The position numbers and the translations under genes are program-made. DNA of 64,000 nucleotides, taken from assembly GCA_009691445.1 (NCBI GenBank), contig SICL01000001.1:129738-193737 (forward strand). Reading direction: 5' to 3'. Under the pieces are notes generated by a model, which was given only the letters and a program-made list of their open reading frames with translations, did no database searches and was not told the origin of the DNA. Origin of the DNA: Candidatus Taenariivivens baikalensis (GTDB lineage Bacteria > Omnitrophota > Omnitrophia > Omnitrophales > Aquincolibacteriaceae). Every line of letters starts with the position of its first letter. Position 1 is the stretch's first letter. Shown here in pieces: positions 3,103 to 63,337 of this stretch.

Positions 3103-3103
3103 A

Positions 3104-5011: not shown

Positions 5012-5014
5012 AGA

Positions 5015-5722: not shown

Positions 5723-5816
5723 AACCCCTCTAAAACGTTGGTTTATTATCGGCTATTGACACTTAAAAATGCACCGGAAAGTTGGGCTTTGGGCAGACGA
5801 AATTTGAGAGTTACCT

Positions 5817-7346: not shown

Positions 7347-7356
7347 AATCCTTAAA

Positions 7357-9479: not shown

Positions 9480-9482
9480 AGC

Positions 9483-11308: not shown

Positions 11309-12464
11309 CAAAGGCATCCTCGTATTTTTGCAGCACCATCGGCCAATCAAGTTCGTTTTCGACTCTCTGACGGCCTTGTAAGCCTATTTTTCGGGCTAGT
11401 TCTGGATCTTCCAGAAGAAGGCATGCTTTTTCAGCAATCTCCTGAGGATTTGTCGGAGAAACTAAGAAACCAGTGACGCCATCAATCACCGCATCGGCTA
11501 CTCCTCCGGAATTACCGCCAATCACGGGTTTTCCCGCAGCACTCGCCTCAATGAAGGCAACTCCAAACCCTTCAAAATCGCCCACCCAAGGGTCCTTTGG
11601 ATCATCAATAACACGATTCGGGAGAATAAAAATATCACAGGACGCATAACACACCGGAAGGTCTCGGTCTTGAACAAATCCAGCGAAGGTGACGGACCCC
11701 TGAAGATTTTTTTTTTGAACTTTTTGGCGCAAATTTTCTTTTTCCGGCCCCTCACCCACAATTAAATAGTGGGCAGTGGGAACGCGCGCGAGAATCGCGG
11801 GAAGAGCATCGATAACCTGGTCGTGCCCCTTACGTGGAAATAAGCGCGCTACTGTCAAAAGAACTTTTTTTCCCTCAAGCCCAAACTTCTTTTTAAATTC
11901 CAAGGTTCCCGAGACCTTCGGCGAAAACTTTTCAGCATCAATCCCATTGGGGACAAACTCAACATTCTGAAGTTTTGGGATAAATTTTAAAACGAGGTCG
12001 CGCGTATAGTGACTCACGGAAAAAACTCGCTTGGCACGCTTAAGGACGATCTTCAGAAGACCAATGTCGGTCCGCGAAAGCGCAGGGCGAGACACTTCAT
12101 ATCCGTGCGTAAGAACTGCATAAGGAACCCCGGTAAAAAAATTAAAAACACAGCTAGCAACTCCCGAAAAATTCCACGACGTGGCCCAAATGCGGTCAAT
12201 TTTTTCTCGCTGATGAATCTTGAAAATTTGAACGGTGAGAGCCCAAATCTGGACGATTCGGGCCGAGGGCTGGTCCATTCGATTAATTGAGAAGGTTTGA
12301 TCCTGATCTTGAAATTGGGAAGGCCATTTGCCCCGCACATAATTCCAACACAGCACCTGAATCGGCCGTTTGTTTTTACTCCAGTGAGCGGCCATTTCAT
12401 AGGCCACGACAGCAATTCCGCCATCCTGAGGCGGGAATTCACGCGTCACAATCAGATCCGCCAT
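11298..12464 (-). CDS. GT4 glycosyltransferase
   Basis: GFGVAFIEASAAGKPVIGGNSGG (EX7E region) and FPPQDGGIAVV N-terminus. Confidence 0.8.
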   Translation of the reverse strand: MADLIVTREFPPQDGGIAVVAYEMAAHWSKNKRPIQVLCWNYVRGKWPSQFQDQDQTFSINRMDQPSARIVQIWALTVQIFKIHQREKIDRIWATSWNFSGVASCVFNFFTGVPYAVLTHGYEVSRPALSRTDIGLLKIVLKRAKRVFSVSHYTRDLVLKFIPKLQNVEFVPNGIDAEKFSPKVSGTLEFKKKFGLEGKKVLLTVARLFPRKGHDQVIDALPAILARVPTAHYLIVGEGPEKENLRQKVQKKNLQGSVTFAGFVQDRDLPVCYASCDIFILPNRVIDDPKDPWVGDFEGFGVAFIEASAAGKPVIGGNSGGVADAVIDGVTGFLVSPTNPQEIAEKACLLLEDPELARKIGLQGRQRVENELDWPMVLQKYEDAFDDH

Positions 12465-12472
12465 GCAACTGC

Positions 12473-13417
12473 CTACACAGTCTTTGAACGCGCGGTCTTG
12501 GGACGCTTGACTGTCCCCCGCCGGTCATGCCAAGGAAAACGATTAAGATTTAAAATCCGGTCCCAGTCGTAAAAAATGAGCTGTAAAATTATCAAATCGG
12601 GGAAAAAAATATTTTGCAATAATAAAATAAAGCCATGGAGCATCATCCCAATCAACGGATAAATCATCCTTAGATGCCAAGAAAAAAGAATCACCGGATA
12701 AAACAACTCGGAAAAAACAGCCGCGGCAGAAAGTAAAATCCAAACACCGTCCGGCCAATGGATTGTTCCGAGGCCCACCTGGAAACGAAAATGCATAATC
12801 CCCAAGGTATCCTGAAGAATATGATGCTTTAAGTTCCACGGGGCAAACCATTCGAGGCCGCTATTATGAAGTTTGGCATAACCAGCCTGAAAATAGCAAC
12901 CCGCCATGACGGCACGAAGCAGAAAGACTGACCACCCATAAATGACCTGCTGAGTTTCTTTTTCTCCGGATCTTCCCTTTTTTTGACTTTGGCTTTGATC
13001 CCAGGAAAGCCCATCTTCAACGGGAAGCCATAACATAAAAAACATGAGATAAAACGGAAGCAAACCCGTATGAAAAAACCAGGCATAGGCCCGGGGAACA
13101 CTGATATAAATAAAATACATGACCGTCGCCGCAAGTAAACTCCAGCGAGTTTGGCATCCCACCAGTGCCATCAGTAAAAAAACGACGAGAAGCAGCTTAA
13201 ATGCGGCTAGGATCACCGAAGATGAAAGCAAAACCGCCATCATCGAACGCGGGACAAACATCATAAAACCAATGGGACGATACCAATCAAAGGGAACTTC
13301 ACTGAATACCGGAAAATTTTCCCAAAGCACATAAAAGAGTGCTGTCAATAGCACCAGAATCCGGATTGCTCCAAGCCGGGACGCGTTGCACATCCCCACC
13401 ATCTTTCGCTCAAACAT
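12473..13417 (-). CDS. HTTM-domain integral membrane protein (vitamin-K-dependent gamma-carboxylase-like fold)
   Basis: About 8 TM segments with an HTTM-like N-terminal pattern (SRLGAIRILVLLTALFYVLW...FDWYRP). Start set at the internal ATG at 13417, preceded by an AGGAG Shine-Dalgarno sequence. Confidence 0.55.
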   Translation of the reverse strand: MFERKMVGMCNASRLGAIRILVLLTALFYVLWENFPVFSEVPFDWYRPIGFMMFVPRSMMAVLLSSSVILAAFKLLLVVFLLMALVGCQTRWSLLAATVMYFIYISVPRAYAWFFHTGLLPFYLMFFMLWLPVEDGLSWDQSQSQKKGRSGEKETQQVIYGWSVFLLRAVMAGCYFQAGYAKLHNSGLEWFAPWNLKHHILQDTLGIMHFRFQVGLGTIHWPDGVWILLSAAAVFSELFYPVILFSWHLRMIYPLIGMMLHGFILLLQNIFFPDLIILQLIFYDWDRILNLNRFPWHDRRGTVKRPKTARSKTV

Positions 13418-15212
13418 CGGAAGACTCCTCATACGGTTTACCGATCGCTCTTTGGATCACAAATCCTCGATTGGGATCCCGGGGATCGTCGAAAGCATTC
13501 CATTTCCAGCGCTCAAAATGAATTTCAGCAATCCCGGGATCTCCCGATTTACGAAATCTCCGGTCATAAGCTTTGTCATAGATTGTTGTAAATTCGTTGG
13601 CAAGTTCAGGACTTTTAAGGGCTTCCTCGACATACCGTTTTGAACGGCCGTCGGCAAGTATTGGCAGCACCTGATGATCGGGGATCTTTACTTCTTTACC
13701 ATCTTGGAGAATGACCACCATCTTGTCGTAAAGAACGGTTTTTTCTTCAACAAACGAAAACATCTGGAAGGCGGTCAGAGGGAAAAACTCAATGCGGTAA
13801 ATCATCTGAAAAAGCAGATACATTCCATACAAACAAAGAATCCATTTCGGGCGTGCTTCCTGGCGAGTTCTCGTAAAAATAAAAATTACGAGGAATGCCA
13901 AAGCAGCCGTACCCACCAAGGCCTTGAGTTCAAAATCTTTATTTCGATCAGGAAAGCTGCGATACTCCCATCCCGTTTTCTCAATGCTCTTCTCGCGGTC
14001 GAGAGACTCCATCTCTTTCAATCCTTCCGCAACCGCATCCGCAAAAACAGCGTGGCCTGTCCGGACGGGACAATCATCATCATGAATCACCCGGTAGACA
14101 GGAGTTCCGGCTTTAAGAGCTTTTTGCACCGCGGGAAGTACGTCCACATAACCAATTCTTGCCGCACGCAAAAAATCAATCGTCCGGCTGCGGAAGTAAT
14201 TCTCATTTTCGATTAGGTTTTTGAATTTTTCTGATATCGCAAGATCTGATTCGGAAAGAAACTGAGCATAAGCAGATTCTTTTGTGGGAATCAGCACCGG
14301 GACAAACTTCACCGCCTCTTTTTGAAGACGATCCTGGATATCTCGGAGGATTTCCAGCGTGATTCTCATCCCTTCAATAATCCGGGGATCCTCACGGCCC
14401 AGCGCAAGCGCTCGGTATTCGGGCCAAAAAATCATATGGAGGCGTGGATCGTCCACGACCTCCGCAACCCCTTCAACCTTTTGCGCAGCCGCCTTGATCG
14501 TATCCCATTTTGATTCAAGAAAGGCCGCATGACGATTCTCAGTTCCATTCAGTTTATGTTTCAAAAAAAGGCCAAAACGGTAGCACGCGGAATAGCTGAG
14601 TAATCTCCTCATCCCGCCACAAAAACCTTTCGACGACGAAATGTTTCCGCGATAGATTCCTTCCTGTTCCGTCATAAGACTCTGAATGTCCCGGACTTTT
14701 TTCGAAAGAGGAAACCGGTTTTCCAGCTCCGTCCACTGTCGGATGCGATTTGGATCCTGATCACGAAACCGATCCATACGCTTTTCCACATAAACTGTTT
14801 CAAAGACTTTTAAAAAATCACTTCCCAAATCAAGATTCACAAAAATCGTCTTGGGCTTGAAGGCAAGGACAGTATTTAACTGCTCATAAGAATCCACCAA
14901 ACTGAGATAAGGACGGGACACGGTATAAACCGGTTTGCCTAACAAAGAGCCCAACTTGAGTGGCCAAGCATTTTTCTTATCCCAGCATGAGCCGCTGCCC
15001 TGGGAGTCTCCCAAAACGATGAGATCCGCCTGCTTGACGCCCCGGGGATTGGGAAATCCCCTTTCATCCAACTGGGAATGACGAGCAATCCAGTAATGAC
15101 CTCCGAAAGGAAGCAGGATTTCTCCCAAAACAAACAGAAGAATGAACCAGATCACGAAGGTCTTGAGAGAAGATGAAGGACGAATGGGTCCCGAAGACGA
15201 TAATTTAAGCAT
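13410..15212 (-). CDS. Membrane-anchored protein with an SGNH/GDSL-like hydrolase N-domain and an unknown C-terminal domain
   Basis: N-terminal TM helix, a GDSQGSG block-I-like motif, a second TM helix near residue 430, then a 150-aa hydrophilic C-terminal domain. Confidence 0.4.
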   Translation of the reverse strand: MLKLSSSGPIRPSSSLKTFVIWFILLFVLGEILLPFGGHYWIARHSQLDERGFPNPRGVKQADLIVLGDSQGSGSCWDKKNAWPLKLGSLLGKPVYTVSRPYLSLVDSYEQLNTVLAFKPKTIFVNLDLGSDFLKVFETVYVEKRMDRFRDQDPNRIRQWTELENRFPLSKKVRDIQSLMTEQEGIYRGNISSSKGFCGGMRRLLSYSACYRFGLFLKHKLNGTENRHAAFLESKWDTIKAAAQKVEGVAEVVDDPRLHMIFWPEYRALALGREDPRIIEGMRITLEILRDIQDRLQKEAVKFVPVLIPTKESAYAQFLSESDLAISEKFKNLIENENYFRSRTIDFLRAARIGYVDVLPAVQKALKAGTPVYRVIHDDDCPVRTGHAVFADAVAEGLKEMESLDREKSIEKTGWEYRSFPDRNKDFELKALVGTAALAFLVIFIFTRTRQEARPKWILCLYGMYLLFQMIYRIEFFPLTAFQMFSFVEEKTVLYDKMVVILQDGKEVKIPDHQVLPILADGRSKRYVEEALKSPELANEFTTIYDKAYDRRFRKSGDPGIAEIHFERWKWNAFDDPRDPNRGFVIQRAIGKPYEESSDV

Positions 15213-16374
15213 GCTCTTTTACCGATCCGATGTGGTGATAAAAATCCAGTGTCAATTGCGCCATTTGATGCCATGTATATCGACGGGCGCGGCACAGCCC
15301 CTGAAGCTTAAACCGTTCCGCCGTTTCTGAATCACGGGACAGAACCTCATCCAGCGCCTCCGCCATTTTCTGTGAATCATGAGGATCCACCAGCCGAACA
15401 TCATGTCCGAGATTTTCCTGGTGAGGCGGAATATCGGATGCAATCACGGGAATTCCCGAAGCCATCGCCTCCAGCGGGGGCGATGACCATCCTTCCCAAA
15501 ATGAAGGAAAAAAGAACGTCCGGGCGGCACTGTAAAGCATCGGAAGATCCTCGGATTCTTGATCCAACCAGCCCGTCATAAAAACATCTCCCGTTAAATT
15601 CATGTCTGGAATCAGTTGAGCTAAATCTCGGGCATACGCGGGCATTCCGCCCGCAAGAACCAGCATCAAGTCCGAATACCCTTTTTTCTTTTTTAATAGG
15701 GAAAAGGCTTCAAGAATTCCCTGAATGTTTTTATTCCTCTGAATTCCACCCGCATAAAGCACATAGGGACGTTCAAAACTAAAACGCTTTTTCAGATACG
15801 CACGAGCCTGTTGAATGTCTCGGGGATAAAACTCATTTCCAATCCCAAGCGGAGTCACCTTGATTTTATTTGCCCCCACACCGTAATGCGCCATAAAATC
15901 CTGCTTCATGGACTCAGATACACAGATAAAGTAATCGGCATTCCGAAGCGCTTTCTTCATAAAGGCTTCGTAATAGCGCACATAAGATGGATCTAAATGC
16001 CCAGGAATCCGCAGATGAGCCACGGAATGAATCGTGACAACCAGGGGCAGGCGACCGCGCGGGGGCAGGATTTCTCCAAGAGAATGAAAAAGATCGATTC
16101 CCCCAAGAAATGCTCCCAGCGGAGGAATCCCCCATTCATTCCACAGCCACTTAACGACCCCACCCGGAAGATAGATTAACCGGTTACGCATGCGTGATAA
16201 GTTTGGGAACTGAGGAACGGGATAAGCGGGCTTTCGAAATCTAAAATAGAAAGCAATAAATTCGTCCGTGCTCGTAGTTGACTCGGAGGCCAGGGCCTGA
16301 ATCAAATTTACCGCATATCGGCGAATAGCCCTCTCTCCGTGAATCATTTCGTTACCGTCAATTCCGATTTTCAT
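15205..16374 (-). CDS. GT4 glycosyltransferase
   Basis: EGWSSPPLEAMASGIPVIASDIPPHQE (EX7E region). ATGA overlap with the upstream GT39 gene. Confidence 0.8.
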   Translation of the reverse strand: MKIGIDGNEMIHGERAIRRYAVNLIQALASESTTSTDEFIAFYFRFRKPAYPVPQFPNLSRMRNRLIYLPGGVVKWLWNEWGIPPLGAFLGGIDLFHSLGEILPPRGRLPLVVTIHSVAHLRIPGHLDPSYVRYYEAFMKKALRNADYFICVSESMKQDFMAHYGVGANKIKVTPLGIGNEFYPRDIQQARAYLKKRFSFERPYVLYAGGIQRNKNIQGILEAFSLLKKKKGYSDLMLVLAGGMPAYARDLAQLIPDMNLTGDVFMTGWLDQESEDLPMLYSAARTFFFPSFWEGWSSPPLEAMASGIPVIASDIPPHQENLGHDVRLVDPHDSQKMAEALDEVLSRDSETAERFKLQGLCRARRYTWHQMAQLTLDFYHHIGSVKEHA

Positions 16375-17960
16375 AGAGATTTCAGGGGCTTTTTTAAGTC
16401 ATATATCAAAAAATTCGGATCATGAAAGACCACGGGAAAACTTCTATTTAAAAACATCTTCAAATCACCCTGTAAAGCAAGCTGCTCAAGATCCGCAACC
16501 ACAAAATAGTCCCAAGATCCATACTTTTGATAATTTCGGAATCGCTCCTCAGCCGATAACCGCGAAATTCGTCGAATGATTTCAAAATTCATCTGTTCTT
16601 GGCTGGGCCATTCTAATCCCGAAACCCAGCCGTAATACTGAAGCATTTTCCCGGCACCCCACGAGCCCGGCAAATAAATCATACGGGTACTGTGGAGAGT
16701 GGCTTCACCAATCTTTTTTGCATTTGCAATCGTTTGTTCCTGTGAGGAAAACTGATAACTTCTTTCAATATATTTTGTTTTCCCCCAAATTTTCCCGAAG
16801 ATCCCTGCAGCCAAAATCAGCATCAGAAAAACCCAGGGGGATTTTTTAAAATAGCCCGAATAAGGCTTCGCCCGCTCGGCCAGCGCTGCCACTCCCAAAC
16901 AAATCCACGGCATCAGCATCAGTTGATAATATTCATGGGTGTGGATTTGATAAGTGAAGACAAGTCCAAAAATAAAATAGCCAATCCCGTATCCAATCAT
17001 GATCGCGCGTGCCTTGGAGTTGCGAAAAAGAAATAAACCTGTGACCGCAAAAAGCAAAGGGACAAATCCAATCACGATTCCTAGAAGACCTTTCCATCCA
17101 AGCCAGAAGTGGGGTGTCAAAATTAAATAGGGAAGGATACTGACTTGAAACTGCCACTGTAAAAAATCGCCTGTCACAATCCGGTAAACGTAATGCCCCG
17201 CCACTGGAAGAACCAATCCTAAAAAGAATATCCATAGCTGAAAATTCAATAACGCTTTTTTTAGACCATCGCGCTGCCAAATCCCCATACAAAAAGCCCC
17301 TAAAATAGGGAAAAGACAAAGCGGTTTAATCCAAACCGCGAGAATAGAAACTAACGCAGTGGAAAGAAAACTGGAGTCGGCGTCACCCTGAAAATAATCG
17401 ATAATCCTCTGGATTGAAAAAAGTAGCATCACCAGCATCAGGATGTCCGGCTGAAAGCTGGTGCTGATAATAATTCCATAGGGGAAAAAGAGAAATAGAA
17501 AGGCTGAGAAGCACGCGATTTCCGAACCAAACCACTTTTTCGCCAGTTGGTACAAGGCAAGTGCCGCCCAAAACCATATTCCGACAGCCAGAACGCGTGG
17601 GACCCACTCACGTTCTCCCCCAGCCACGGCATATCCCAGTGCAACCGCCATTTGAAACACGGGCGGCTCCAGGCGTTCCTGCTTTTGACCTTGTTCAATC
17701 GCAACCTCCTGGTTCCAGCGATCAGCGGGTTTTACTTTGCCAGCAAAATATTGGTAATAAAGACCACGGCTAATTAAGCGGTCATAATACTGACGGCCTT
17801 TATGAAATCCCGAAGGATGATGAACGATATAGGGAATTCGGATGAGAAGGGCCAAAAGAAGCAAGGCAAAGACAAGGGCTGGGCGGTACTTGGAAGTTTC
17901 AGCAGTGCGGTTGATCGGGGACATGATGTCTCTATTGATCGGAAAAAAAGACCGATACAT
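16371..17960 (-). CDS. GT-C glycosyltransferase of the PMT/ArnT (GT39/GT83) family
   Basis: Polytopic membrane protein with a PMT_2-like N-terminal region (EPPVF...GGEREWVPRVLAVGIWFWAALALYQLAKKWFGSEIACFSAF). Confidence 0.65.
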   Translation of the reverse strand: MYRSFFPINRDIMSPINRTAETSKYRPALVFALLLLALLIRIPYIVHHPSGFHKGRQYYDRLISRGLYYQYFAGKVKPADRWNQEVAIEQGQKQERLEPPVFQMAVALGYAVAGGEREWVPRVLAVGIWFWAALALYQLAKKWFGSEIACFSAFLFLFFPYGIIISTSFQPDILMLVMLLFSIQRIIDYFQGDADSSFLSTALVSILAVWIKPLCLFPILGAFCMGIWQRDGLKKALLNFQLWIFFLGLVLPVAGHYVYRIVTGDFLQWQFQVSILPYLILTPHFWLGWKGLLGIVIGFVPLLFAVTGLFLFRNSKARAIMIGYGIGYFIFGLVFTYQIHTHEYYQLMLMPWICLGVAALAERAKPYSGYFKKSPWVFLMLILAAGIFGKIWGKTKYIERSYQFSSQEQTIANAKKIGEATLHSTRMIYLPGSWGAGKMLQYYGWVSGLEWPSQEQMNFEIIRRISRLSAEERFRNYQKYGSWDYFVVADLEQLALQGDLKMFLNRSFPVVFHDPNFLIYDLKKPLKSL

Positions 17961-17977
17961 TAAATGTATTTTGTTTC

Positions 17978-19639
17978 TCAGGAAGAATGGCAGTTTTCAG
18001 GATGCGTCGATTCAAGGACAAGTGTCTTTGAATCCCGGAATAAAACCCTGACGACCGAGGCAAGAAGCGAAGGAAACGCCTTTTCAGAAGGGACGATGAA
18101 ATAACGAAATCCATAATCCCGGCACAAAGAGTCATACTCGCCGCGAACTGCCAACTCCTTGATGACTTTATCTTTAGACTCGAGGAGCGCAGGAACCCGG
18201 GAAAGATATCCAAACGCCATCGGCTTTTCATGCAGCGTCTGGTAATACAAGGCTTCGTGGCGGGTGGAGACTGTGTCGATCATAGCCCCTGGCGGTAACG
18301 TCTGTAAAAGTCGGATAGACTCAGGGACGCTCATCGAAATTCCTGGGAATCTTGCCGGCCAATATTCAAAAAAAAGCACGACCATCAGCAAAGAGGTGAA
18401 AACACGATGCTTCATCGGTCCTCGCCACAAGTTCCTCAAGGCCATCGCACCGATCACGGCAAGACTGAGTTGAGTCACATCAAACATCCGCGCAGGAATA
18501 CCGGACAATTTAAAAGCTGGAAAAAAATATTCCAAAGCTGCATAAGGCAGAGGAACCGGGTAGGCCCTCCCCATCAGATTCAGCTGTGGACCAAGTGCAA
18601 AAATCGCAAAGACTCCCGCAAGGCCCAGCCAAAGATTCAGTGACTCTTCCTGAAAAGATTTCCGGTTAAAGAGGACGTAGAGAAGCAAAAAAATCAGCGT
18701 AAACCCAACAAATAAACTAGATTCATAGTAATTACCCTTCCAGGAACCCCAGATCTCCCGAGTCCAAGCCGCATAATGAGAAAATCCACCGGGCAGCAAG
18801 GGTGAAAGAAGATCCATCGAATAATCACGGGAATCATGCAATCCTTCCGGCAGAGGCCCCTGGGAATATCCGTGAAGCATCGGCTTGATAAATAAAAAAA
18901 CACTGATCAGGAAAAGAGAGGCCACAAACGTCACGACTTTTCGATTTTGAAATAATAAATTCAGGAAATCCTTTCCCGTTCTTTTTACGAACCCGAGAAA
19001 AATAAGAAAAACACAGAGAGCGGCATAAAAAAAATAATACTGACAGCTCCATGAAATAAGGAAGAAAACGATGGCGGCCGCAATCCCCTTTCGAACATTA
19101 AAGGTTTCGAGAAATTGAAAGGTTAATAAAAGGAAGAGCGGGTTCCATTCAAAGGAAATCATGTGGATATGTCCTGAGGCTGCGTGGGCCATATGGGCAT
19201 TGGAAAACGCATAAATCAATCCCCCGGCAAGACTCGGGATGTAAGACCGCGTAAAATAGCGGCACAAACAGAAGGCGTTGAGCCCACCCAGGACAAACGA
19301 TCCCATGACCAGAAAATTATGGGACTGGATTCTTGTGAAAACAAACTGGAGTCCGGTATAGATCAACCCCTTCAGGGGAGCCAGACTGTGCGTATACAGA
19401 TCAACTCCGAAAGGGTAATGCAGAAAGCTTGTATGCCAAAAAGACGTGTGGAGCGACAGAAGAGACTTGGAAATCCACCAGAGGTTCCAAATGGACTGAA
19501 GACCATCCCGCCTGTCCGTGAAAAAATGAGATGAAAACTTCTGCATCAAAGGGAATGTGTAAACGTAAAAACAGAAAAAATAAATGAGGGCAGGAACGAC
19601 GAACGAAGTAAAACTCTTCCCGATTTTTTGAGAATTCAT
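17978..19639 (-). CDS. Polytopic membrane protein, putative GT-C-like glycosyltransferase (YfhO/DUF-type)
   Basis: More than 12 TM helices and a HYPFG motif. The start was trimmed to the ATG at 19639 (MNSQKIGK). The track's TTG start at 19732 would make the ORF run through a structured repeat element. Confidence 0.45.
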   Translation of the reverse strand: MNSQKIGKSFTSFVVPALIYFFCFYVYTFPLMQKFSSHFFTDRRDGLQSIWNLWWISKSLLSLHTSFWHTSFLHYPFGVDLYTHSLAPLKGLIYTGLQFVFTRIQSHNFLVMGSFVLGGLNAFCLCRYFTRSYIPSLAGGLIYAFSNAHMAHAASGHIHMISFEWNPLFLLLTFQFLETFNVRKGIAAAIVFFLISWSCQYYFFYAALCVFLIFLGFVKRTGKDFLNLLFQNRKVVTFVASLFLISVFLFIKPMLHGYSQGPLPEGLHDSRDYSMDLLSPLLPGGFSHYAAWTREIWGSWKGNYYESSLFVGFTLIFLLLYVLFNRKSFQEESLNLWLGLAGVFAIFALGPQLNLMGRAYPVPLPYAALEYFFPAFKLSGIPARMFDVTQLSLAVIGAMALRNLWRGPMKHRVFTSLLMVVLFFEYWPARFPGISMSVPESIRLLQTLPPGAMIDTVSTRHEALYYQTLHEKPMAFGYLSRVPALLESKDKVIKELAVRGEYDSLCRDYGFRYFIVPSEKAFPSLLASVVRVLFRDSKTLVLESTHPENCHSS

Positions 19640-19654
19640 AGCGCAGGGGGTTTT

Positions 19655-19736
19655 GTCATTGCGAGTCCCGCGCCTTGGCGGAGACACGGCAATCTCTGGC
19701 CAAAACCCGAGATTGCTTCGCTTTGCTCGCAATGAC
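19655..19736. repeat. Structured intergenic repeat (copy A): terminal inverted repeats GTCATTGCGAG/CTCGCAATGAC and nested inner inverted repeats GCAATCTC/GAGATTGC
   Basis: 11 bp perfect terminal inverted repeats about 60 bp apart, with an 8 bp inner inverted repeat. Homologous to the copies at 54147-54260 and 63357-63420. Confidence 0.7.
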
Positions 19737-19796
19737 TGAGAGAAAGTTGATAACCAAATAGGCTGTTAGTTTCTTGCATGATTTAATATTTTAAAA

Positions 19797-21653
19797 TCAG
19801 GCTCGGTTACGAAGTGAAACAACAGGCGCATAGAGAGATCGGCGTTCTCTCACCCACCAAGCCCCTGTTTTCTTATGCGTTTGGGGATCCGCAAAATGGT
19901 AATCATACAGCGTCGCCTGAATGTAGCGCGGTGGATCGTCCGGAAAGGGATTATTCTTCAAAAGCCTTAAGACATCGGGAGATCCTTTAAGCAATTTTTC
20001 ACAGAAGCCGGCAAACCATGGATGTTCTTTGTAACTGCCCAACGCGGCAAACCACATCTGCCAATCCAAGCGCGGCTGATGAGGAAGGTTAAACCCCGGG
20101 CGTCTCATCACATCACCGGGCTTATATTGAAATTCATACGCTTTCCAAGTAATACGATTATTGGATCCTTCGATAATAATTTCCGGGCGCTCCGTCGTCA
20201 TCACCGAGAAAAGCCCATATTGATTAAACGATCGTAAAGGGCGAAGAATATTACTGGGGATCGTTAAAGCGGGAATGGAAAAATTTAAAATAGCCGGGAC
20301 CTGATTCAGAGTTCCCAAAAGAGCCGTCGCCGCAACCGTTCCTACCACCCACTTGGGCCACCCATAATTCTTGGAGAAAGGCGTTCGCTTTTCAAGACTT
20401 TGAAAGAAATAAAGGCAGCTCGCCGGCCAAGTCTGATCATCAATGAGAGGGACACAAAGCACGATCGTGAGTAAATTAAAAAAACAGTAATTACCCGTCA
20501 GCATAATTAGAACCTGAAGCGCAGTAATCGCCGCAGCGGCATAAGAACGAAGTCGGCGCGGCCCCCAAATCAAGAAAGGCGCCAAAAGTTCAACCCCAAA
20601 CATAACAAGGGCAGAAAACTGGTGAAACCCAACGGGAAGAAAATGAAAATACCAGGCCGCCCCGGTCGGAAGCGGTTGAGTTTGATAATGATAAGTCAGC
20701 GCGGTGAGGTGACTCCAGTTCGGATCCCCGCTTCGAAGCTTCATCATCCCGGAAAAAAACATGAGGCGGAAAAGAAGAAAATAAAGTAAAAGACGGATCA
20801 GGTTTGACGCATTGAATCCGCGAAAAACAGGATCGTTTTTTCCGCCCGGCCTCCAGGAGGCCAGAAAAATGGAAAGAAAACCGCTCTCAAGCAAAAGATT
20901 ATCCCATTGAAAGGACATGAAATCCTGGCCTGCGTTCAGCAGGGACAGATAAAGGACCCAAAGGATAAAAAGTACGGGTGCCGGTGAAATTCCTCCAATG
21001 ACCAATAAAGATCCTGCAACTCCCGTCCAACAAACCGTCTGAAGAACTAAGTCGCTCGCATCAAACCAAAACAGGGTCGGAACATGAAAGTAAGCCCCTG
21101 ATCCATAATTCGCATGCAAAAGCGTAAGATACTCTTTAGCGGAAAGAATACCCTTCGAGCCCACCAGGCCCAGGATCTGGGAGGCTAAAGACAAAAATGA
21201 AAATAAATAGATCACGCCCATTAACTTAATAAAAAGCTGCGCGGCAAACCGGTACGTGGACGGGTTTAAATCATCGCCCCAAAGAAAACGTGTCAGATTT
21301 GAAAAGAAAACTCGGTGGGATGCCACAAGCCGGTAAAAGAATTCAGACAATGCCCGGAACCCGGAAACCTTTTGATAAAGCCCAAGAAGCCACGTCTTTC
21401 CCGGAGCGTAAGAAAGCGCGCGGAAAACAGCTTCCGCGCCCTCATAAACATTTCCGTCGGTTTCGATCAGCTGAATCGAACGCTCAAACGACTCTTTTTC
21501 TATTTCGGGATAGATGGCACCCATTTTTTGCGCAGTGTCATAATCCACCCGGGAGTCTGTGAAAACTATCCAGCGATTAATCCACCGGCGGCAAAATCCG
21601 CATTCCCCGTCAAAAATTATGAGGGGCTTTTCGGGAAAATGAGATACGTTCAT
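19797..21653 (-). CDS. DCC1-like thiol-disulfide oxidoreductase (DUF393) fused to an HTTM domain and a lipase-maturation-factor (LMF)-like C-terminal domain
   Basis: IFDGECGFCRRWINRW matches the DCC-family motif. A central multi-TM HTTM-like region follows. The C-terminal ...NPFPDDPPRYIQATLYDYHFA resembles the LMF1-family C-terminus. Start set at the ATG at 21653 (MNVSHFPEK). Confidence 0.6.
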   Translation of the reverse strand: MNVSHFPEKPLIIFDGECGFCRRWINRWIVFTDSRVDYDTAQKMGAIYPEIEKESFERSIQLIETDGNVYEGAEAVFRALSYAPGKTWLLGLYQKVSGFRALSEFFYRLVASHRVFFSNLTRFLWGDDLNPSTYRFAAQLFIKLMGVIYLFSFLSLASQILGLVGSKGILSAKEYLTLLHANYGSGAYFHVPTLFWFDASDLVLQTVCWTGVAGSLLVIGGISPAPVLFILWVLYLSLLNAGQDFMSFQWDNLLLESGFLSIFLASWRPGGKNDPVFRGFNASNLIRLLLYFLLFRLMFFSGMMKLRSGDPNWSHLTALTYHYQTQPLPTGAAWYFHFLPVGFHQFSALVMFGVELLAPFLIWGPRRLRSYAAAAITALQVLIMLTGNYCFFNLLTIVLCVPLIDDQTWPASCLYFFQSLEKRTPFSKNYGWPKWVVGTVAATALLGTLNQVPAILNFSIPALTIPSNILRPLRSFNQYGLFSVMTTERPEIIIEGSNNRITWKAYEFQYKPGDVMRRPGFNLPHQPRLDWQMWFAALGSYKEHPWFAGFCEKLLKGSPDVLRLLKNNPFPDDPPRYIQATLYDYHFADPQTHKKTGAWWVRERRSLYAPVVSLRNRA

Positions 21654-21669
21654 TAGTTTTTCATTCGAT

Positions 21670-22122
21670 TTAAGATATGGTGATTTGATCGGATAACTCA
21701 TTCTCATCATCGGATTGAGCCGGGAAATACTGATGGAGTTTTTCCCCGGCTCGCTCAATCGCTTGAACAATTCCTTCCGCAAACCGGTCCTCACGAAAGG
21801 ATCGAGTCATCTGCTCGCTGATCTCGGTCCAAAAGGATTCGGGAACTTTTTTGTGAATCCCTTCATCCCCGAGGATCGCAAACTTCCGGTTTTTAAGTGC
21901 CAGAAAAATCAAAACCCCGTTTCGGTCTTTGGTTTTTGTCATCCCAAGCTTCTGAAAAATCTCTTGAGCATGCTCCAGAACATCTTTTGTGATTTTCTCA
22001 TCAAGATGGACTCTGATTTCCGCGGAGGTTCTCAACTCAACGCTCTTAATCGCTCGAAAAACAAGATGCTCTTCAGATCGTGAGAAAAAATGCTTCGGAA
22101 AATGCCGGCGATTAAAATTCAT
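21670..22122 (-). CDS. TPM-domain protein (small, soluble)
   Basis: NGVLIFLALKNRKFAILGDEGIH aligns with the NGLILLIFKNDQKMRIEVGYGLE core of the neighbouring TPM protein. Confidence 0.5.
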   Translation of the reverse strand: MNFNRRHFPKHFFSRSEEHLVFRAIKSVELRTSAEIRVHLDEKITKDVLEHAQEIFQKLGMTKTKDRNGVLIFLALKNRKFAILGDEGIHKKVPESFWTEISEQMTRSFREDRFAEGIVQAIERAGEKLHQYFPAQSDDENELSDQITIS

Positions 22123-22125
22123 TTT

Positions 22126-22926
22126 TTACCATCCCCCACTTGCGCCGCCACCACCAAAGCTTCCACCGACGCCGGAAAATCCACCGCCACCACCACCCGA
22201 GGATCCCCCGGATGAAGAGCTGTAGCTTCCTCCGGAAGTCATCATAACTCTTAAAATAAACCAAATGATTGCAAAATGAATCCACCACTCCAAAAATCCG
22301 TAACGGTGCGGATATTGATGACGCGAAACGGCATAATAGACATAACGAGCAAAATCAATTCCCATGAAAAGTAAAAACGACCACACAATAAATGAGAATA
22401 GAAAACTTGGCTGAGACGAACCCTTCGGACCCAAATAGTCTTCTCCTTGTGTAGCTTCCATAATCGCCCTCACGCCTTGAATGACTCCTTGGTCGTATTG
22501 TCCCAGCTTGAAGTTCGGGGCAATCACCTCGCGAATAATCTGGCCGCAAAGCGCATCAGGAAGCCGGGACTCAAGTCCGTAGCCGACCTCGATTCTCATT
22601 TTTTGGTCATTTTTGAAAATTAGCAAAATAAGTCCGTTATCATATTTTTTTTGCCCAACTTTCCACTTTTCCGCCAGGTGAATGGAAAAATCCTCCAGGG
22701 ATTGACCATCCAGACTCGGGAAAGTGACCACCACGATTTGATGACTCGTGGAAGATTCGAAATTTTTTAGGGTATTTTGGAGAAAAATCCGGGCTTGATC
22801 GGAAAGGATCTGGGCATAATCACTGATATAACCTTGTGGATGTTCAGGAATTTCCAGGGCAAAGGCGCGCAAAGAAAAAAAACACCAAGCCACTAGACTT
22901 AAAACTAGAACACGAAAAAATCTCAT
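22126..22926 (-). CDS. TPM-domain protein (YgcG-like) with a C-terminal TM segment and a Gly/Ser-rich tail
   Basis: Signal peptide, TPM core, TM helix and a GGSSGGGGGGFSGVGG tail; the typical partner of LemA. Confidence 0.7.
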   Translation of the reverse strand: MRFFRVLVLSLVAWCFFSLRAFALEIPEHPQGYISDYAQILSDQARIFLQNTLKNFESSTSHQIVVVTFPSLDGQSLEDFSIHLAEKWKVGQKKYDNGLILLIFKNDQKMRIEVGYGLESRLPDALCGQIIREVIAPNFKLGQYDQGVIQGVRAIMEATQGEDYLGPKGSSQPSFLFSFIVWSFLLFMGIDFARYVYYAVSRHQYPHRYGFLEWWIHFAIIWFILRVMMTSGGSYSSSSGGSSGGGGGGFSGVGGSFGGGGASGGW

Positions 22927-22929
22927 CGT

Positions 22930-23526
22930 TTAAAATTTTACTTGCGGAGCTTTCTGAGCGCCTTCTTCAGCCTGAAAATAAGCTTTGGAAGAAAATCCCA
23001 TCAGCTTAGCAATGAACACTGTGGGAAACTGGCGGCGTAATGTATTAAACGTTTGAGCGGCTTCGTTAAAGCGCATCCGTTCAACGGTAATTCGGTTTTC
23101 CGTTCCTTCAAGCTGGGTTTGAAGAGTTAAGAAATTCTGATTCGCTTTCAGATCCGGGTACTTTTCCACCACGATCATCAGACGGCTGATGGCACTCGAA
23201 AGCTCTCCCTGTGATTGTTGGAACTTTTTCAGAAGCTCGGGATTATTCACGATTTCCGCACCCGCCTGAATGGATGTTGCTTTAGAACGGGCCGCGACCA
23301 CTCCTTCCAGAGTCTCTTTTTCATGCGCCGCGTAACCTTTCACCGTTTCCACGAGATTAGGAATCAGGTCCAATCGTCTCTGATAAACATTTTGCACCTG
23401 GGCCCAGGCACTTGAGACGGCTTCTTCGCCGGACACAAGACGGTTATACGATCCTCCCCAAAAAGATCCGATCATGAAACCGATACCCACAATGACTGCC
23501 AACGCGATCAGCAAACCTTTTTTCAT
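22930..23526 (-). CDS. lemA: LemA-family protein
   Basis: N-terminal TM helix plus LemA core (VSSAWAQVQNVYQRRLDLIPNLVETVKGYAAHEKETLEGV). Start moved to the ATG at 23526 to clear the mutL stop. Confidence 0.8.
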   Translation of the reverse strand: MKKGLLIALAVIVGIGFMIGSFWGGSYNRLVSGEEAVSSAWAQVQNVYQRRLDLIPNLVETVKGYAAHEKETLEGVVAARSKATSIQAGAEIVNNPELLKKFQQSQGELSSAISRLMIVVEKYPDLKANQNFLTLQTQLEGTENRITVERMRFNEAAQTFNTLRRQFPTVFIAKLMGFSSKAYFQAEEGAQKAPQVKF

Positions 23527-23536
23527 AATTCCCCCG

Positions 23537-59836: not shown

Positions 59837-59890
59837 AAGGGCACCTATGGTATCGAAACCCCCTTAACCGTTCAAGCGCTTTGTGTTAGA

Positions 59891-63337
<3,447 letters not shown>

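What the first reader, a model, noticed from the sequence alone, without database searches (positions are those of the whole stretch)
12473..21794. Membrane module of two HTTM proteins, a DCC1 thiol-oxidoreductase/LMF fusion, two GT-C enzymes and an SGNH-like protein, a candidate undescribed redox-linked glycosylation system
Directly downstream of a conventional glycan operon, and co-oriented with it, sits an unusual set of polytopic membrane proteins:
- a stand-alone HTTM protein (the fold of vitamin-K-dependent gamma-carboxylase);
- a membrane-anchored SGNH-like protein;
- a GT4 glycosyltransferase;
- a PMT/ArnT-type GT-C glycosyltransferase;
- a second GT-C-like protein;
- a DCC1-like thiol-disulfide oxidoreductase fused to a second HTTM domain and an LMF-like C-terminus.

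All are co-directional and mostly overlapping, so they are probably co-transcribed with the glycan genes. In eukaryotes the HTTM enzyme works with a thiol oxidoreductase (VKOR) and a quinone cofactor. The DCC1 domain here could play the matching role. This would imply a quinone/thiol-redox-driven modification (carboxylation, epoxidation or lipid-carrier chemistry) coupled to periplasmic glycan or protein glycosylation by the GT-C enzymes. I cannot name any described pathway with this gene combination.
Basis: partly seen in the sequence, partly recalled or inferred. Interest (0 to 1): 0.72.

Follow-up and report, generated by a model that had tools for sequence, protein, structure and literature searches.

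The report
Split vitamin-K-carboxylase-like enzyme in glycan operon
The six genes are real, but they are three separate units rather than one system. The notable unit is a two-gene, truncated relative of the vitamin-K-dependent carboxylase that keeps the cofactor-activating residues and recurs inside bacterial sugar-polymer gene clusters, a pairing I found no description of.

Summary
The six ORFs lie exactly at 12473-21794 in an Omnitrophota MAG. All are on the minus strand, so the block is upstream of the glycan operon, not downstream.

- **Domain calls.** Most hold: DCC1-like+LMF1+LMF1_C (strong), PMT_2 (GT-C), GT4. The 319-aa protein misses Pfam HTTM, but its model matches only GGCX in the PDB. 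The 584-aa protein is only weakly GT-C-like. The SGNH-like domain lacks its canonical His.
The last 177 residues of the 600-aa protein ("Cdom") are the constant partner of the 319-aa gene. Elsewhere Cdom is a separate ~180-aa gene just upstream, or is fused to HTTM and/or DCC1.
- **Active site.** Both HTTM-superfamily proteins keep GGCX's Lys218 and an acid at Asp263 (as Glu). Asn290 is Ile, as in giant-virus "vitamin K epoxidases".
- **Linkage.** DCC1-LMF1 is widespread and showed none of the other module genes in 80 loci from other phyla. The Cdom/HTTM unit lies among glycosyltransferase or methyltransferase genes in 7 of 9 loci.

Verdict: a mosaic of three units. The split GGCX-like unit is a new variant, probably quinol-dependent and glycan-associated. 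Its chemistry is unknown.

The parts
19797..21653 (-). DCC1-LMF1 fusion gene. The ORF can extend to a GTG at 21794, but homologue alignment supports the ATG at 21653. It has a cytoplasmic DCC1-like domain (21309-21620) with the CxxC 'CGFC' at 21591-21602. The LMF1 membrane domain is at 20427-20918 and LMF1_C at 19824-20228. The GGCX-Lys218-equivalent Lys is at 20739-20741 and the Asp263-equivalent Glu at 20589-20591.
   Evidence: - Pfam: DCC1-like 51.2 bits, LMF1 181.6 bits, LMF1_C 177.4 bits.
- A 30-sequence alignment has both Cys, the Lys and many other columns invariant, and the Glu conserved in at least 90% of sequences.
17978..19732 (-). 584-aa polytopic membrane protein, a DUF6311-type GT-C-like candidate. 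An alternative ATG start lies at 19639. A conserved Asp/Trp loop 'FTDRRDG..W..WW' follows TM1 (19502-19522).
   Evidence: - No hit in the local Pfam copy.
- Homologues carry precomputed PF19830 DUF6311.
- 6 weak hits from 14 family members to four GT-C-type families, and 4 carry ILEI.
- Invariant D46, W52 and W56.
- At least 7 hydrophobic segments plus a C-terminal soluble part of about 200 aa.
- No structure was predicted.
16371..17960 (-). 529-aa PMT_2-type (GT39/ArnT-like) GT-C glycosyltransferase candidate.
   Evidence: - Pfam PMT_2 33.3 bits against a 26.1 cut-off.
- 8 hydrophobic segments.
- The same protein appears on an independent Logan assembly contig with the same neighbours.
15205..16374 (-). 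389-aa GT4 glycosyltransferase. Its homologue (45% identity) also sits directly upstream of the Cdom gene in L005 and L092.
   Evidence: Pfam Glycos_transf_1 103 bits. tblastn synteny is shown.
13944..15212 (-). N-terminal part of the 600-aa protein: a membrane anchor plus a periplasmic SGNH-like domain. The 'LGDSQG' motif is at 14997-15014. The block-V His is replaced, reading 'HDDDC' at 14070-14084.
   Evidence: - ALGX 24.5 bits, below the 26.5 cut-off.
- Homologues of 380-410 aa carry Lipase_GDSL_2/ALGX.
- In alignment A10 the Ser is lost in 3 of 5 Cdom-fused forms and the His in all 5.
13410..13943 (-). 'Cdom' (residues 424-600 of the 600-aa protein). It has a two-helix membrane hairpin with a basic loop, then a predicted periplasmic alpha/beta domain of about 120 aa. 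The motif 'FFPLTAFQMF' is at 13758-13787. It is the constant partner of the HTTM-like gene.
   Evidence: - Homologous (30-51% identity) to stand-alone 173-186-aa proteins encoded immediately upstream of the HTTM-like gene in L002, L004, L005 and L092.
- 73 relatives among 1.84 billion representative proteins. Of 56 scanned, many are fused to DCC1-like (10), HTTM (5) or SGNH-like domains.
- AF2 model pLDDT 87.9.
- No informative PDB match.
12473..13432 (-). 319-aa HTTM-fold membrane protein, i.e. the GGCX membrane core only. The NCBI start is at 13417, giving an 8-nt overlap with the Cdom gene. Residues equivalent to GGCX sites:
- K187 at 12872-12874 = Lys218.
- E242 at 12707-12709 = Asp263.
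- H121 at 13070-13072 = His160.
- S143/D145 within 12998-13006 = Ser181/Asp183.
- I269 at 12626-12628 = Asn290.
   Evidence: - No Pfam hit.
- AF2 pLDDT 81.6.
- Foldseek against the PDB finds 16 GGCX chains, the top 15 at TMq 0.53-0.62. The first non-GGCX hit has TMq 0.13.
- hhalign to the LMF1 family gives 88.8% probability and E 2.5e-6.
- 35% identical (E 4e-48) to the N-terminal part of P0065, which passes Pfam HTTM.
- Residue mapping.
795..12464 (-). Downstream Wzx-type glycan operon (context). In order: GT4, GT2, methyltransferase, FkbM methyltransferase, GT4, Polysacc_synt_3 flippase, methyltransferase, AsnB-type amidotransferase, GT4, GT4.
   Evidence: Pfam. The GT4 (11298-12464), GT2 and FkbM genes are syntenic with the pair in L005, L090 and L092.
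21670..27942 (-). Upstream context: mutS, mutL, lemA and two TPM-domain genes. mutS-mutL is the synteny anchor shared with L004, L005 and L089.
   Evidence: Pfam. Synteny is shown.

Best explanation
The interval juxtaposes three separable units at the 5' end of a Wzx-type glycan operon in an Omnitrophota MAG.

**Unit A, the DCC1-LMF1 fusion.** It combines three parts:
- a cytoplasmic CxxC thioredoxin-like domain;
- an HTTM-superfamily membrane domain that keeps a Lys/Glu quinol-site dyad;
- an LMF1_C domain, taken to be periplasmic by analogy with eukaryotic LMF1.

The fusion is widespread in bacteria. It had none of the other module genes within 10 kb in the 80 loci examined.

**Unit B, ordinary periplasm-facing glycan enzymes.** These are a PMT_2 GT-C, a DUF6311-type GT-C-like protein and a GT4.

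**Unit C, a split and truncated relative of the vitamin-K-dependent carboxylase.** A 319-aa HTTM-fold membrane core is encoded next to its constant partner 'Cdom'. Here Cdom is fused to a degenerate SGNH-like domain.

The most likely working of unit C (inferred):
- It binds a membrane quinol, presumably menaquinol.
- It uses Lys187/Glu242 as GGCX uses Lys218/Asp263, for epoxidase-like quinol activation.
- This drives a periplasm-side modification of the glycan, of its lipid-linked precursor or of its acceptor. Cdom would provide the substrate side.
- A DCC1 thiol-disulfide domain would feed cytoplasmic reducing equivalents to the quinone site. It is fused in cis in relatives, and here it is possibly supplied in trans by unit A.

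Shown: folds, domains, residue conservation, gene partnership, fusions and neighbourhoods. Inferred: quinol use, substrate, the A-C partnership and topology.
For: **HTTM fold and active-site residues**
- The 319-aa model matches only GGCX in the PDB.
- Invariant residues map onto GGCX sites in a 33-sequence alignment: K187=K218 (33/33), E242=D263, W195=W223, R255=R276, S143/D145=S181/D183. H121=H160 is conserved in most sequences but not all.
- The LMF1 domain shares the K/W/E/R/I positions.
- The K/E/I pattern equals that of the giant-virus truncated 'vitamin K epoxidase' (PMC13486548).

**Constant partnership with Cdom**
- The Cdom gene lies immediately upstream, overlapping or a few nt away, in the window and in L002, L004, L005, L089, L090 and L092. 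L092 has two pairs.
- The two are fused in one chain in P0065 and P0069.

**DCC1 link**
- 10 of 56 Cdom relatives carry DCC1-like. P0016 is HTTM-like-DCC1-Cdom.
- DCC1-LMF1 lies within 0-3 genes upstream in the window, L004 and L089.

**Glycan link**
- GT genes lie within about 8 kb in 7 of 9 loci.
- About 11 of 17 immediate neighbours are GT4, sugar-type methyltransferases or Wzz. For comparison, GT4 was 2 of 137 among DCC1-LMF1 neighbours.
- SGNH-Cdom fusions recur: P0034, P0045, P0048, P0059 and probably P0053.

**Separateness of units A and B**
- In 80 DCC1-LMF1 loci, none has homologues of the other membrane proteins.
- PMT_2 and DUF6311 genes are adjacent without any HTTM gene in L007.
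Against: - No biochemical data exist for any bacterial member of these families.
- The Cdom model resembles neither the lumenal part of GGCX nor anything else solved.
- Cdom relatives do not hit Pfam DUF5819.
- GGCX Asn290, which hydrogen-bonds the cofactor, is Ile here.
- GGCX chemistry needs O2. The oxygen relations and quinone content of this MAG are unknown.
- Two related loci (L002/L003, L004) have the pair with no glycan genes nearby. A DsbH-type thioredoxin and an FAD oxidoreductase follow instead.
- Several glycan-context loci are close relatives sharing synteny, so the counts overstate independence.
- The GGCX sequence used for residue mapping was recalled from memory. Its length and seven landmark residues agree with published numbering.
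Confidence: 0.5

Rival explanations
1. One reading: all six genes (DCC1-LMF1, two GT-C, GT4, SGNH-like, HTTM) form one dedicated redox-driven glycosylation machine. The GT-C enzymes would depend on the HTTM/DCC1 chemistry.
For: - Gene spacing is tight, with overlaps, across the whole block and on into the glycan operon.
- GT-C-like genes also occur near the pair or its fusion in L089 (weak PMT_2, E 1.8e-4) and L091 (GT87). L005 has a 560-aa polytopic protein that may be one.
- DCC1-LMF1 is syntenic with the pair in 3 of 4 loci where the upstream region is visible.
Against: - The 584-aa and 529-aa proteins have no homologue in any other locus carrying the pair.
- The GT-C-like genes near the pair belong to different families.
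- L090, L092, L093, L004 and L002 show no GT-C gene in the sequence held for them.
- DCC1-LMF1 in 80 other genomes has no GT-C association: PMT_2 is not among the 25 commonest families of its 137 neighbours and YfhO appears 3 times.
- L005 has the pair and glycan genes but no DCC1-LMF1.
Confidence: 0.15
2. Fortuitous adjacency. The Cdom/HTTM-like pair and DCC1-LMF1 would be envelope redox or protein-folding factors, like eukaryotic LMF1. They would be inherited next to mutS-mutL in this lineage, and variable glycan islands simply insert around them.
For: - mutS-mutL-(DCC1-LMF1)-pair order is shared by the window, L004 and L089, while the genes in between and after differ.
- L002/L004 have no glycan genes. 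A DsbH-type thioredoxin and a DAO oxidoreductase follow instead.
- LMF1 is discussed as an ER redox factor (PMC7197872, PMC12781119).
Against: - Glycan genes flank the unit in unrelated contexts too. L091 has GT87, UbiA-HAD, GT2 and GT4. L093 has a methyltransferase and GT4s. L089 has Wzz and GT2.
- The pair is duplicated inside one glycan cluster in L092.
- Start/stop overlaps of 1-8 nt with GT4 or methyltransferase genes suggest shared transcription.
- There are repeated fusions of Cdom to an SGNH-like domain of a type otherwise found in glycan modification.
Confidence: 0.25
3. Acyl-transfer reading. The HTTM-like membrane protein would pass an acyl group across the membrane to the periplasmic SGNH-like domain, which would O-acylate the glycan. 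This would be analogous to AT3-SGNH (OatA) or MBOAT+SGNH (AlgI/AlgJ/AlgX, PatA/PatB) systems.
For: - The architecture is a polytopic membrane protein next to a membrane-anchored SGNH-like domain with a weak AlgX-type match.
- SGNH-Cdom fusions recur.
- There is one GNAT-Cdom fusion, P0061.
Against: - The block-V His is replaced in all five Cdom-fused SGNH-like domains, and the Ser in three of five.
- Most pairs have no SGNH part at all.
- The membrane protein's only structural relative is GGCX, not any acyltransferase.
- The residues conserved are those of the GGCX quinol site.
Confidence: 0.07

Closest known systems
[quoted passage not shown]
   Same: - It is the only solved fold matching the 319-aa protein, at TMq about 0.61 over about 300 columns.
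- Lys218, Trp223, Asp263 (as Glu), Arg276, Ser181/Asp183 and mostly His160 have conserved counterparts.
   Different: - Only the membrane core is present, and the protein ends after it.
- The region 374-418 needed for carboxylation and the lumenal clamp are absent.
- Asn290 is Ile.
- Sequence identity is about 14%, with no HMM-level hit to GGCX or to Pfam HTTM.
- The partner Cdom is a separate gene with an unrelated-looking fold.
Giant-virus truncated 'vitamin K epoxidase' (VKE/VKED) next to VKOR and a lipid desaturase (PMC13486548, PNAS 2026)
   Same: - It is a truncated GGCX core that keeps Lys218, has Glu at Asp263 and Ile at Asn290, and lacks the carboxylation region. The residue pattern is identical.
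- It is proposed to couple quinol epoxidation to a non-protein (lipid) modification, together with a thiol-driven recycling enzyme.
   Different: - The partner there is VKOR plus a sterol/fatty-acid desaturase.
- Here the thiol partner is a DCC1-like domain and the context is glycosyltransferases and methyltransferases.
- The Cdom subunit is not described there.
DUF5819 + HTTM-DCC1 adjacent gene pair predicted to form a GGCX-like complex (bioRxiv 10.64898/2026.08.19.745780)
   Same: - It is a two-gene split. One gene encodes a small protein with an N-terminal membrane helix and a soluble domain of about 150 aa. The other encodes an HTTM membrane protein.
- A DCC1-like domain is attached to the HTTM protein.
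- A conserved Lys and Trp lie next to the modelled menaquinol (Lys189/Trp195 there, K187/W195 here).
   Different: - None of the 56 Cdom relatives scanned hit Pfam DUF5819.
- The window's HTTM-like protein has no DCC1 domain and does not hit Pfam HTTM.
- Gene order here is small subunit first.
- The glycan context and the SGNH fusion are not reported there.
[quoted passage not shown] 2018, as cited)
   Same: It is a bacterial HTTM enzyme acting on a non-Gla substrate. It shows that the chemistry has been recruited outside blood-clotting proteins.
   Different: - It is a single fused chain that carboxylates an aspartyl residue in a PKS-NRPS product.
- No sequence or context similarity was tested here.
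Eukaryotic lipase maturation factor 1 (LMF1)
   Same: - The 665-aa protein matches Pfam LMF1 and LMF1_C strongly.
- LMF1 is discussed as a candidate for passing reducing equivalents across the ER membrane. That fits an N-terminal cytoplasmic CxxC domain in the bacterial fusion.
   Different: - In my recollection, eukaryotic LMF1 has no DCC1 domain.
- Its clients (dimeric lipases) have no bacterial counterpart here.
- The bacterial fusion shows no consistent neighbour family among 137 immediate neighbours.
DoxX/DoxD quinone-linked membrane proteins (from my own knowledge: thiosulfate:quinone oxidoreductase; the M. tuberculosis DoxX-SseA-SodA complex)
   Same: 4 of 16 members of the 319-aa family weakly hit Pfam DoxX. 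One source names a member 'DoxX/SURF4 family'. DoxX-type proteins couple sulfur or thiol oxidation to membrane quinones.
   Different: The hits are weak (E at least 1.3e-3), whereas the fold match to GGCX is specific.

Membership tests
Pfam HTTM (PF05090), 319-aa protein | Score above the family's gathering threshold | tested here: not met
   No hit even at E<=10, and 0 of 16 family members hit HTTM. A 35%-identical relative, P0065, does pass at 29.4 bits against 27.7.
GGCX-type HTTM fold, 319-aa protein | Three-dimensional similarity to the GGCX membrane domain | tested here: met
   AF2 pLDDT 81.6. 16 GGCX chains are found, the top 15 at TMq 0.53-0.62 and probability 1.0, and the first non-GGCX hit has TMq 0.13.
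GGCX-type active site, 319-aa protein and LMF1 domain | Catalytic base Lys218 and its acidic partner Asp263 | tested here: met
   The Lys is invariant in 33/33 HTTM-like sequences and 16/16 LMF1 sequences. All bacterial sequences have Glu at the Asp263 column. In GGCX, D263E retains 25% activity (PMC13486548).
GGCX-type active site | Asn290, which hydrogen-bonds vitamin K hydroquinone | tested here: not met
   Ile, Val or Leu in all bacterial sequences of both families. The giant-virus VKE shows the same substitution.
Vitamin-K-dependent carboxylase (function) | Carboxylation region (GGCX 374-418) and lumenal substrate clamp | tested here: not met
Vitamin-K-dependent carboxylase (function) | Quinol- and O2-dependent epoxidase/carboxylase activity | not testable with these tools
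   This needs biochemistry. Quinone biosynthesis genes of the MAG lie outside the window and were not examined.
Pfam LMF1 + LMF1_C, 665-aa protein | Scores above gathering thresholds for both domains | tested here: met
   181.6 bits against 27, and 177.4 bits against 34.2.
DCC1-like thiol-disulfide oxidoreductase (PF04134) | Domain score above threshold, with a conserved DxxCxxC motif | tested here: met
   51.2 bits against 27.8. The motif is 'FDGECGFC', and both Cys are invariant in 30 orthologues.
GT-C glycosyltransferase, 529-aa protein | Match to a GT-C family model; polytopic N-terminal domain | tested here: met
   PMT_2 33.3 bits against 26.1. 8 hydrophobic segments. The catalytic loop-1 acid was not examined.
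GT-C glycosyltransferase, 584-aa protein | Match to a GT-C family model, or a GT-C fold | tested here: inconclusive
   - No hit in the local Pfam copy.
- Homologues carry precomputed DUF6311.
- Only weak hits by a few family members to PMT_2, YfhO, PTPS_related and TMEM260-like.
- hhalign to the 529-aa protein found nothing.
- No structure was predicted.
SGNH/GDSL hydrolase or AlgX-type acetyltransferase, N-terminal part of the 600-aa protein | Family score above threshold and a complete Ser/Asp/His catalytic set | tested here: not met
   ALGX 24.5 bits against 26.5. Ser70 is present, but block V reads 'DDC' where relatives have 'DGH'. Homology to GDSL/ALGX-positive proteins is real.
DUF5819 + HTTM-DCC1 system (bioRxiv 2026) | Small subunit belongs to Pfam DUF5819 | tested here: not met
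   No DUF5819 hit for the 600-aa protein at E<=10, nor for 56 Cdom relatives at E<=0.01.
DUF5819 + HTTM-DCC1 system (bioRxiv 2026) | Adjacent small single-pass or hairpin subunit plus an HTTM membrane protein forming one complex | tested here: inconclusive
   Adjacency and natural fusions are shown. Complex formation could not be modelled with the tools available.

The most novel reading that the evidence does not exclude
A bacterial 'vitamin K cycle' devoted to glycan chemistry. The split HTTM-like/Cdom enzyme would epoxidise menaquinol to generate the strong base that GGCX uses. It would apply that base on the periplasmic side to a sugar, a lipid-linked glycan or a glycan-bearing acceptor, for example by C-H deprotonation leading to carboxylation or epimerisation. 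A cytoplasmic DCC1 CxxC domain would recycle the quinone in place of VKOR. That domain is on the neighbouring LMF1 paralogue here and is fused in relatives.
Probability: 0.12. Interest if true: 0.85.

Novelty: new variant of a known kind. Interest (0 to 1): 0.55.

Why it matters
- GGCX-type chemistry is known for protein Glu carboxylation, for one antibiotic pathway (MloH) and, as a 2026 proposal, for viral lipid remodelling.
- A truncated GGCX core with the same Lys/Glu/Ile signature, split over two genes and recurrently embedded in bacterial glycan operons, would extend this chemistry to envelope glycans.
- It would also give the widespread, uncharacterised bacterial DCC1-LMF1 fusion a testable role as a thiol-to-quinone link. 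At least 561 stretches in GTDB species genomes encode a relative of that fusion.
- That in turn bears on the open question of what eukaryotic LMF1 does in ER redox.
- The immediate practical gains are two: a corrected annotation (three units, not one system), and two small unannotated families (the 319-aa HTTM-like family and Cdom) with clear mutational targets.

Tried and rejected
- **Sequence searches of the PDB.** Searches with the 319-aa profile, the 665-aa protein, the 529-aa protein, the 584-aa profile and P0065 found nothing useful.
- **hhalign.** Cdom against the LMF1 family gave no similarity, so Cdom is not detectably LMF1_C. The 584-aa family against the 529-aa protein, and against the 560-aa protein of L005, also gave nothing.
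- **Metagenome-contig scans.** Scans with the 319-aa family and with a Cdom alignment returned no confirmed loci. One alignment was too diverse to search.
- **Promoter/terminator scan of 11500-24000.** Counts were at or below shuffle expectation and no site fell in an intergenic gap. This gives no evidence for or against co-transcription.
- **GGCX alignment.** Global hhalign of the family to the recalled GGCX sequence failed. Local hhalign had low probability but found the K187=K218 register. The 33-sequence MAFFT alignment then resolved it.
- **Window search for locus genes.** The Memo/AMMECR1, DsbH, DAO and Macro genes seen in related loci were not found in the window.
- **Literature.** No paper in the library links the HTTM domain to glycosyltransferases or mentions DUF6311.

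Full report
**Where and what.** The window comes from a metagenome-assembled genome annotated by NCBI as 'Candidatus Omnitrophica bacterium' (locus tags EXS63_00695 and EXS63_00700, on a 195-kb contig). The six ORFs fill 12473-21794 exactly.

All six are on the minus strand. In transcription order the region reads:
- mutS, mutL, lemA, TPM, TPM;
- DCC1-LMF1;
- the 584-aa protein;
- the 529-aa PMT_2 protein;
- GT4;
- the 600-aa protein;
- the 319-aa protein;
- then the glycan operon (GT4, GT2, two methyltransferases, GT4, a Wzx-type flippase, a methyltransferase, AsnB, GT4, GT4).

Gaps inside the block are 64, 17, -4, -8 and -8 nt, with 8 nt to the next GT4. That is compatible with co-transcription. 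However, about 48 of 55 ORFs in the whole window share this strand. A promoter/terminator scan was uninformative.

**Domain checks.**
- The 665-aa ORF probably starts at the ATG at 21653, as its homologues do. It carries DCC1-like (51 bits), LMF1 (182 bits) and LMF1_C (177 bits).
- The 529-aa protein passes PMT_2, and the 389-aa protein is a GT4.
- The 584-aa protein has no hit in the local Pfam copy. Its homologues carry precomputed DUF6311. A few family members weakly hit PMT_2, YfhO, PTPS_related or TMEM260-like, all of which I know as GT-C-type families. It is GT-C-like, not proven.
- The 600-aa protein has a sub-threshold ALGX hit. Its first ~400 residues are homologous to 380-410-aa proteins with GDSL/ALGX domains.
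- In alignment, the Ser of 'GDS' is present, but the block-V 'DGH' of relatives reads 'DDC'. All four other Cdom-fused relatives also lack that His, and three lack the Ser. This domain is probably not a conventional hydrolase or transferase.

**The 319-aa protein.**
- It hits no Pfam or NCBIfam model. None of its 16 family members hits HTTM, and four weakly hit DoxX. The family is rare: 16 clusters among 5.8 billion.
- An AlphaFold2 model (pLDDT 81.6) matches 16 GGCX chains in the PDB. The top 15 have TMq 0.53-0.62, probability 1.0 and about 300 aligned columns. The first non-GGCX hit has TMq 0.13.
- Profile comparison with 30 DCC1-LMF1 orthologues gives 88.8% probability (E 2.5e-6) over 213 columns.
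- It is 35% identical (E 4e-48) to the N-terminal part of P0065, which passes Pfam HTTM.

The 'HTTM' call is therefore right at fold and superfamily level, and both HTTM-superfamily proteins are real.

**Active-site residues.** I aligned three sets:
- the 16 family members;
- the N-terminal parts of 16 longer Cdom-containing relatives;
- human GGCX residues 41-340.

The GGCX sequence was recalled from memory. Its length (758 aa) and C99, H160, K217/K218, D263, N290 and C450 all fall at their published positions.

| Window residue | GGCX residue | Conservation |
|---|---|---|
| R24 | R68 | near-invariant |
| H121 | H160 | in most |
| S143/D145 | S181/D183 | invariant |
| W167 | W198 | near-invariant |
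| K187 | K218 | 33 of 33 |
| W195 | W223 | invariant |
| E242 | D263 | Glu in all 32 bacterial sequences |
| R255 | R276 | near-invariant (2 Lys) |
| I269 | N290 | Ile, Val or Leu |

The DCC1-LMF1 family shares the K, W, E, R and I positions.

According to PMC13486548:
- K218 deprotonates vitamin K hydroquinone with help from D263.
- D263E keeps 25% activity.
- Giant-virus truncated 'vitamin K epoxidases' show exactly K/E/I and lack the carboxylation region 374-418.

The 319-aa protein likewise ends after the membrane core.

**The missed partner.** Residues 424-600 of the 600-aa protein ('Cdom') are homologous to stand-alone 173-186-aa proteins. These are encoded immediately upstream of the HTTM-like gene in every other locus found:
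- L002/L003, L004, L005 and L092, where two tandem pairs occur;
- L089 and L090, where Cdom is again fused to the SGNH-like part.

A full scan of 1.84 billion representative proteins found 73 relatives. Of 56 scanned, 10 carry DCC1-like, 5 HTTM, 4 weak LMF1 and 2 ALGX. Per-protein scans added GDSL hits in two more.

The architectures seen are:
- SGNH-Cdom;
- HTTM-Cdom (P0065);
- HTTM-like-DCC1-Cdom (P0016, P0069, and by partial evidence P0067 and P0062);
- one GNAT-Cdom.

By sequence, Cdom has two hydrophobic helices joined by a basic loop, followed by a soluble domain. In the fusions, DCC1 sits before the last helix. This places DCC1 in the cytoplasm and Cdom in the periplasm (inference from sequence).

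**Is the block one system?**
- The DCC1-LMF1 fusion is widespread. At least 561 stretches in GTDB species genomes encode a relative. The best 80 are full-length matches at 43-51% identity, from Acidobacteriota, Verrucomicrobiota, Planctomycetota, Poribacteria, Elusimicrobiota, Nitrospinota and others.
- In those 80 loci, no homologue of the 319-aa, Cdom, 584-aa or 529-aa proteins lies within 10 kb.
- The 137 immediate neighbours fall into 163 Pfam families. The commonest is Exo_endo_phos (9). YfhO appears 3 times and GT4 twice, and PMT_2 is not among the 25 commonest.
- PMT_2 and DUF6311 genes are adjacent without any HTTM gene in L007.
- The 584-aa and 529-aa proteins have no homologue in other loci carrying the pair.

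The DCC1-LMF1 gene and the GT-C genes are thus separable from each other and from the pair.

**What is linked.** The Cdom/HTTM-like unit lies among glycan genes in seven loci:

| Locus | Glycan-related neighbours |
|---|---|
| window | GT4 upstream; GT4, GT2 and methyltransferases downstream |
| L005 | GT4, then the pair, then FkbM methyltransferase, GT4, GT2 |
| L090 | pair, then methyltransferase, GT4, GT2 |
| L092 | two pairs interleaved with TylF methyltransferase, GT4, FkbM methyltransferase, GT4 |
| L089 | pair, then Wzz/GNVR kinase, a weak PMT_2-like gene, GT2, epimerase |
| L091 | fused form beside DUF6080, GT87, UbiA-HAD, GT2 and two GT4 |
| L093 | fused form beside a methyltransferase and GT4s |

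L002/L003 and L004 have no glycan genes. There a DsbH-type thioredoxin and an FAD oxidoreductase follow the pair.

The first four loci share synteny, so I count roughly four independent glycan contexts against one non-glycan context. Within the Omnitrophota-type loci, DCC1-LMF1 lies 0-3 genes upstream of the pair in the window, L004 and L089, but not in L005. This may reflect function, with DCC1 supplied in trans where it is not fused. It may equally be inherited order next to mutS-mutL.

**Most likely mechanism.** Confidence is about 0.5.
- Unit C is a split, truncated GGCX-like enzyme.
- It binds a membrane quinol and uses the Lys/Glu dyad for epoxidase-type activation.
- The outcome is exerted on the periplasmic side, on the glycan, its lipid-linked precursor or its acceptor. 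Cdom, with or without the degenerate SGNH-like domain, forms the substrate side.
- A cytoplasmic DCC1 CxxC domain would connect cytoplasmic thiols to the quinone site, taking the place VKOR has in animals.

The folds, residues, partnerships, fusions and neighbourhoods are shown. Quinol use, the substrate, the O2 requirement and the role of DCC1-LMF1 are inferred.

**Comparison with what is known.** The nearest described things are:
- GGCX itself;
- the giant-virus VKE/VKOR/desaturase modules (PMC13486548);
- the DUF5819 + HTTM-DCC1 pair predicted to form a GGCX-like complex (bioRxiv 10.64898/2026.08.19.745780);
- MloH;
- eukaryotic LMF1, discussed as an ER redox factor.

The window's unit differs in several ways:
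- It falls outside the Pfam HTTM and DUF5819 models.
- The small subunit is encoded first and is fused to an SGNH-like domain.
- The HTTM protein itself lacks DCC1.
- The context is glycan operons.

No paper in the searchable library links the HTTM domain with glycosyltransferases.

**Verdict.** This is a new variant of a known kind. Interest is moderate to fairly high, because the finding gives concrete, cheap tests for two unannotated families and for bacterial LMF1.

Noticed in passing
L092:81-1554 and L092:3708-5194: Two tandem copies of the Cdom + HTTM-like gene pair lie in one glycan cluster. They are 42-52% identical to the window's 319-aa protein. A TylF methyltransferase and a GT4 separate them, and an FkbM methyltransferase and a GT4 follow.
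   Followed up: partly
L002:1969-5072 and L004:11575-14782: Where the pair has no glycan genes nearby, a 665-697-aa DsbH-type thioredoxin-domain protein (PF03190) and a DAO/FAD oxidoreductase follow it. This is a second, different redox context for the same pair. Neither gene is present in the window.
   Followed up: partly
L005:3675-5189 and L089:6409-7935: A Memo + AMMECR1 fusion gene (about 505 aa) recurs between mutL or DCC1-LMF1 and the pair in two related loci. It is absent from the window.
   Followed up: partly
window 21670-23574 (-); L002:3-332: A lemA-TPM-TPM trio lies directly upstream of DCC1-LMF1. In L002 a TPM-domain gene sits directly upstream of the Cdom gene, with no DCC1-LMF1 in between.
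   Followed up: no
L091:2396-6592: Next to the fused HTTM-like-DCC1-Cdom protein P0069 lie a DUF6080 protein, a GT87 (GT-C) protein and a UbiA prenyltransferase fused to a HAD phosphatase. That combination is reminiscent, from my own knowledge, of lipid-linked sugar donor synthesis for GT-C enzymes.
   Followed up: no
L004:1-3088: The gene upstream of mutS is annotated as the end of a 7840-residue product, i.e. a giant protein.
   Followed up: no
window 17978-19732 (-): Precomputed annotations give PF19830 (DUF6311) for homologues, including a 100%-identical fragment (P0017). The local Pfam copy returns no such family at all, so the two Pfam versions differ for this family.
   Followed up: partly
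P0061 (423 aa): A GNAT acetyltransferase-like N-terminal domain is fused to Cdom. This is a fourth kind of partner for the module.
   Followed up: no
window 28000-64000: The rest of the window is housekeeping, almost all on the minus strand. It includes several tRNA synthetases, IspD/IspF, a MetH-type methionine synthase (59606-63337, +), ClpB-like AAA, MlaE, ABC transporters, TsaE and thymidylate kinase. No quinone-related family appeared among the 25 families listed.
   Followed up: partly
window 10427-12464 and 795-3201 (-): Several glycan-operon ORFs overlap their neighbours by 53-98 nt when the longest ORF (TTG/GTG start) is taken. The true starts are probably further downstream.
   Followed up: no
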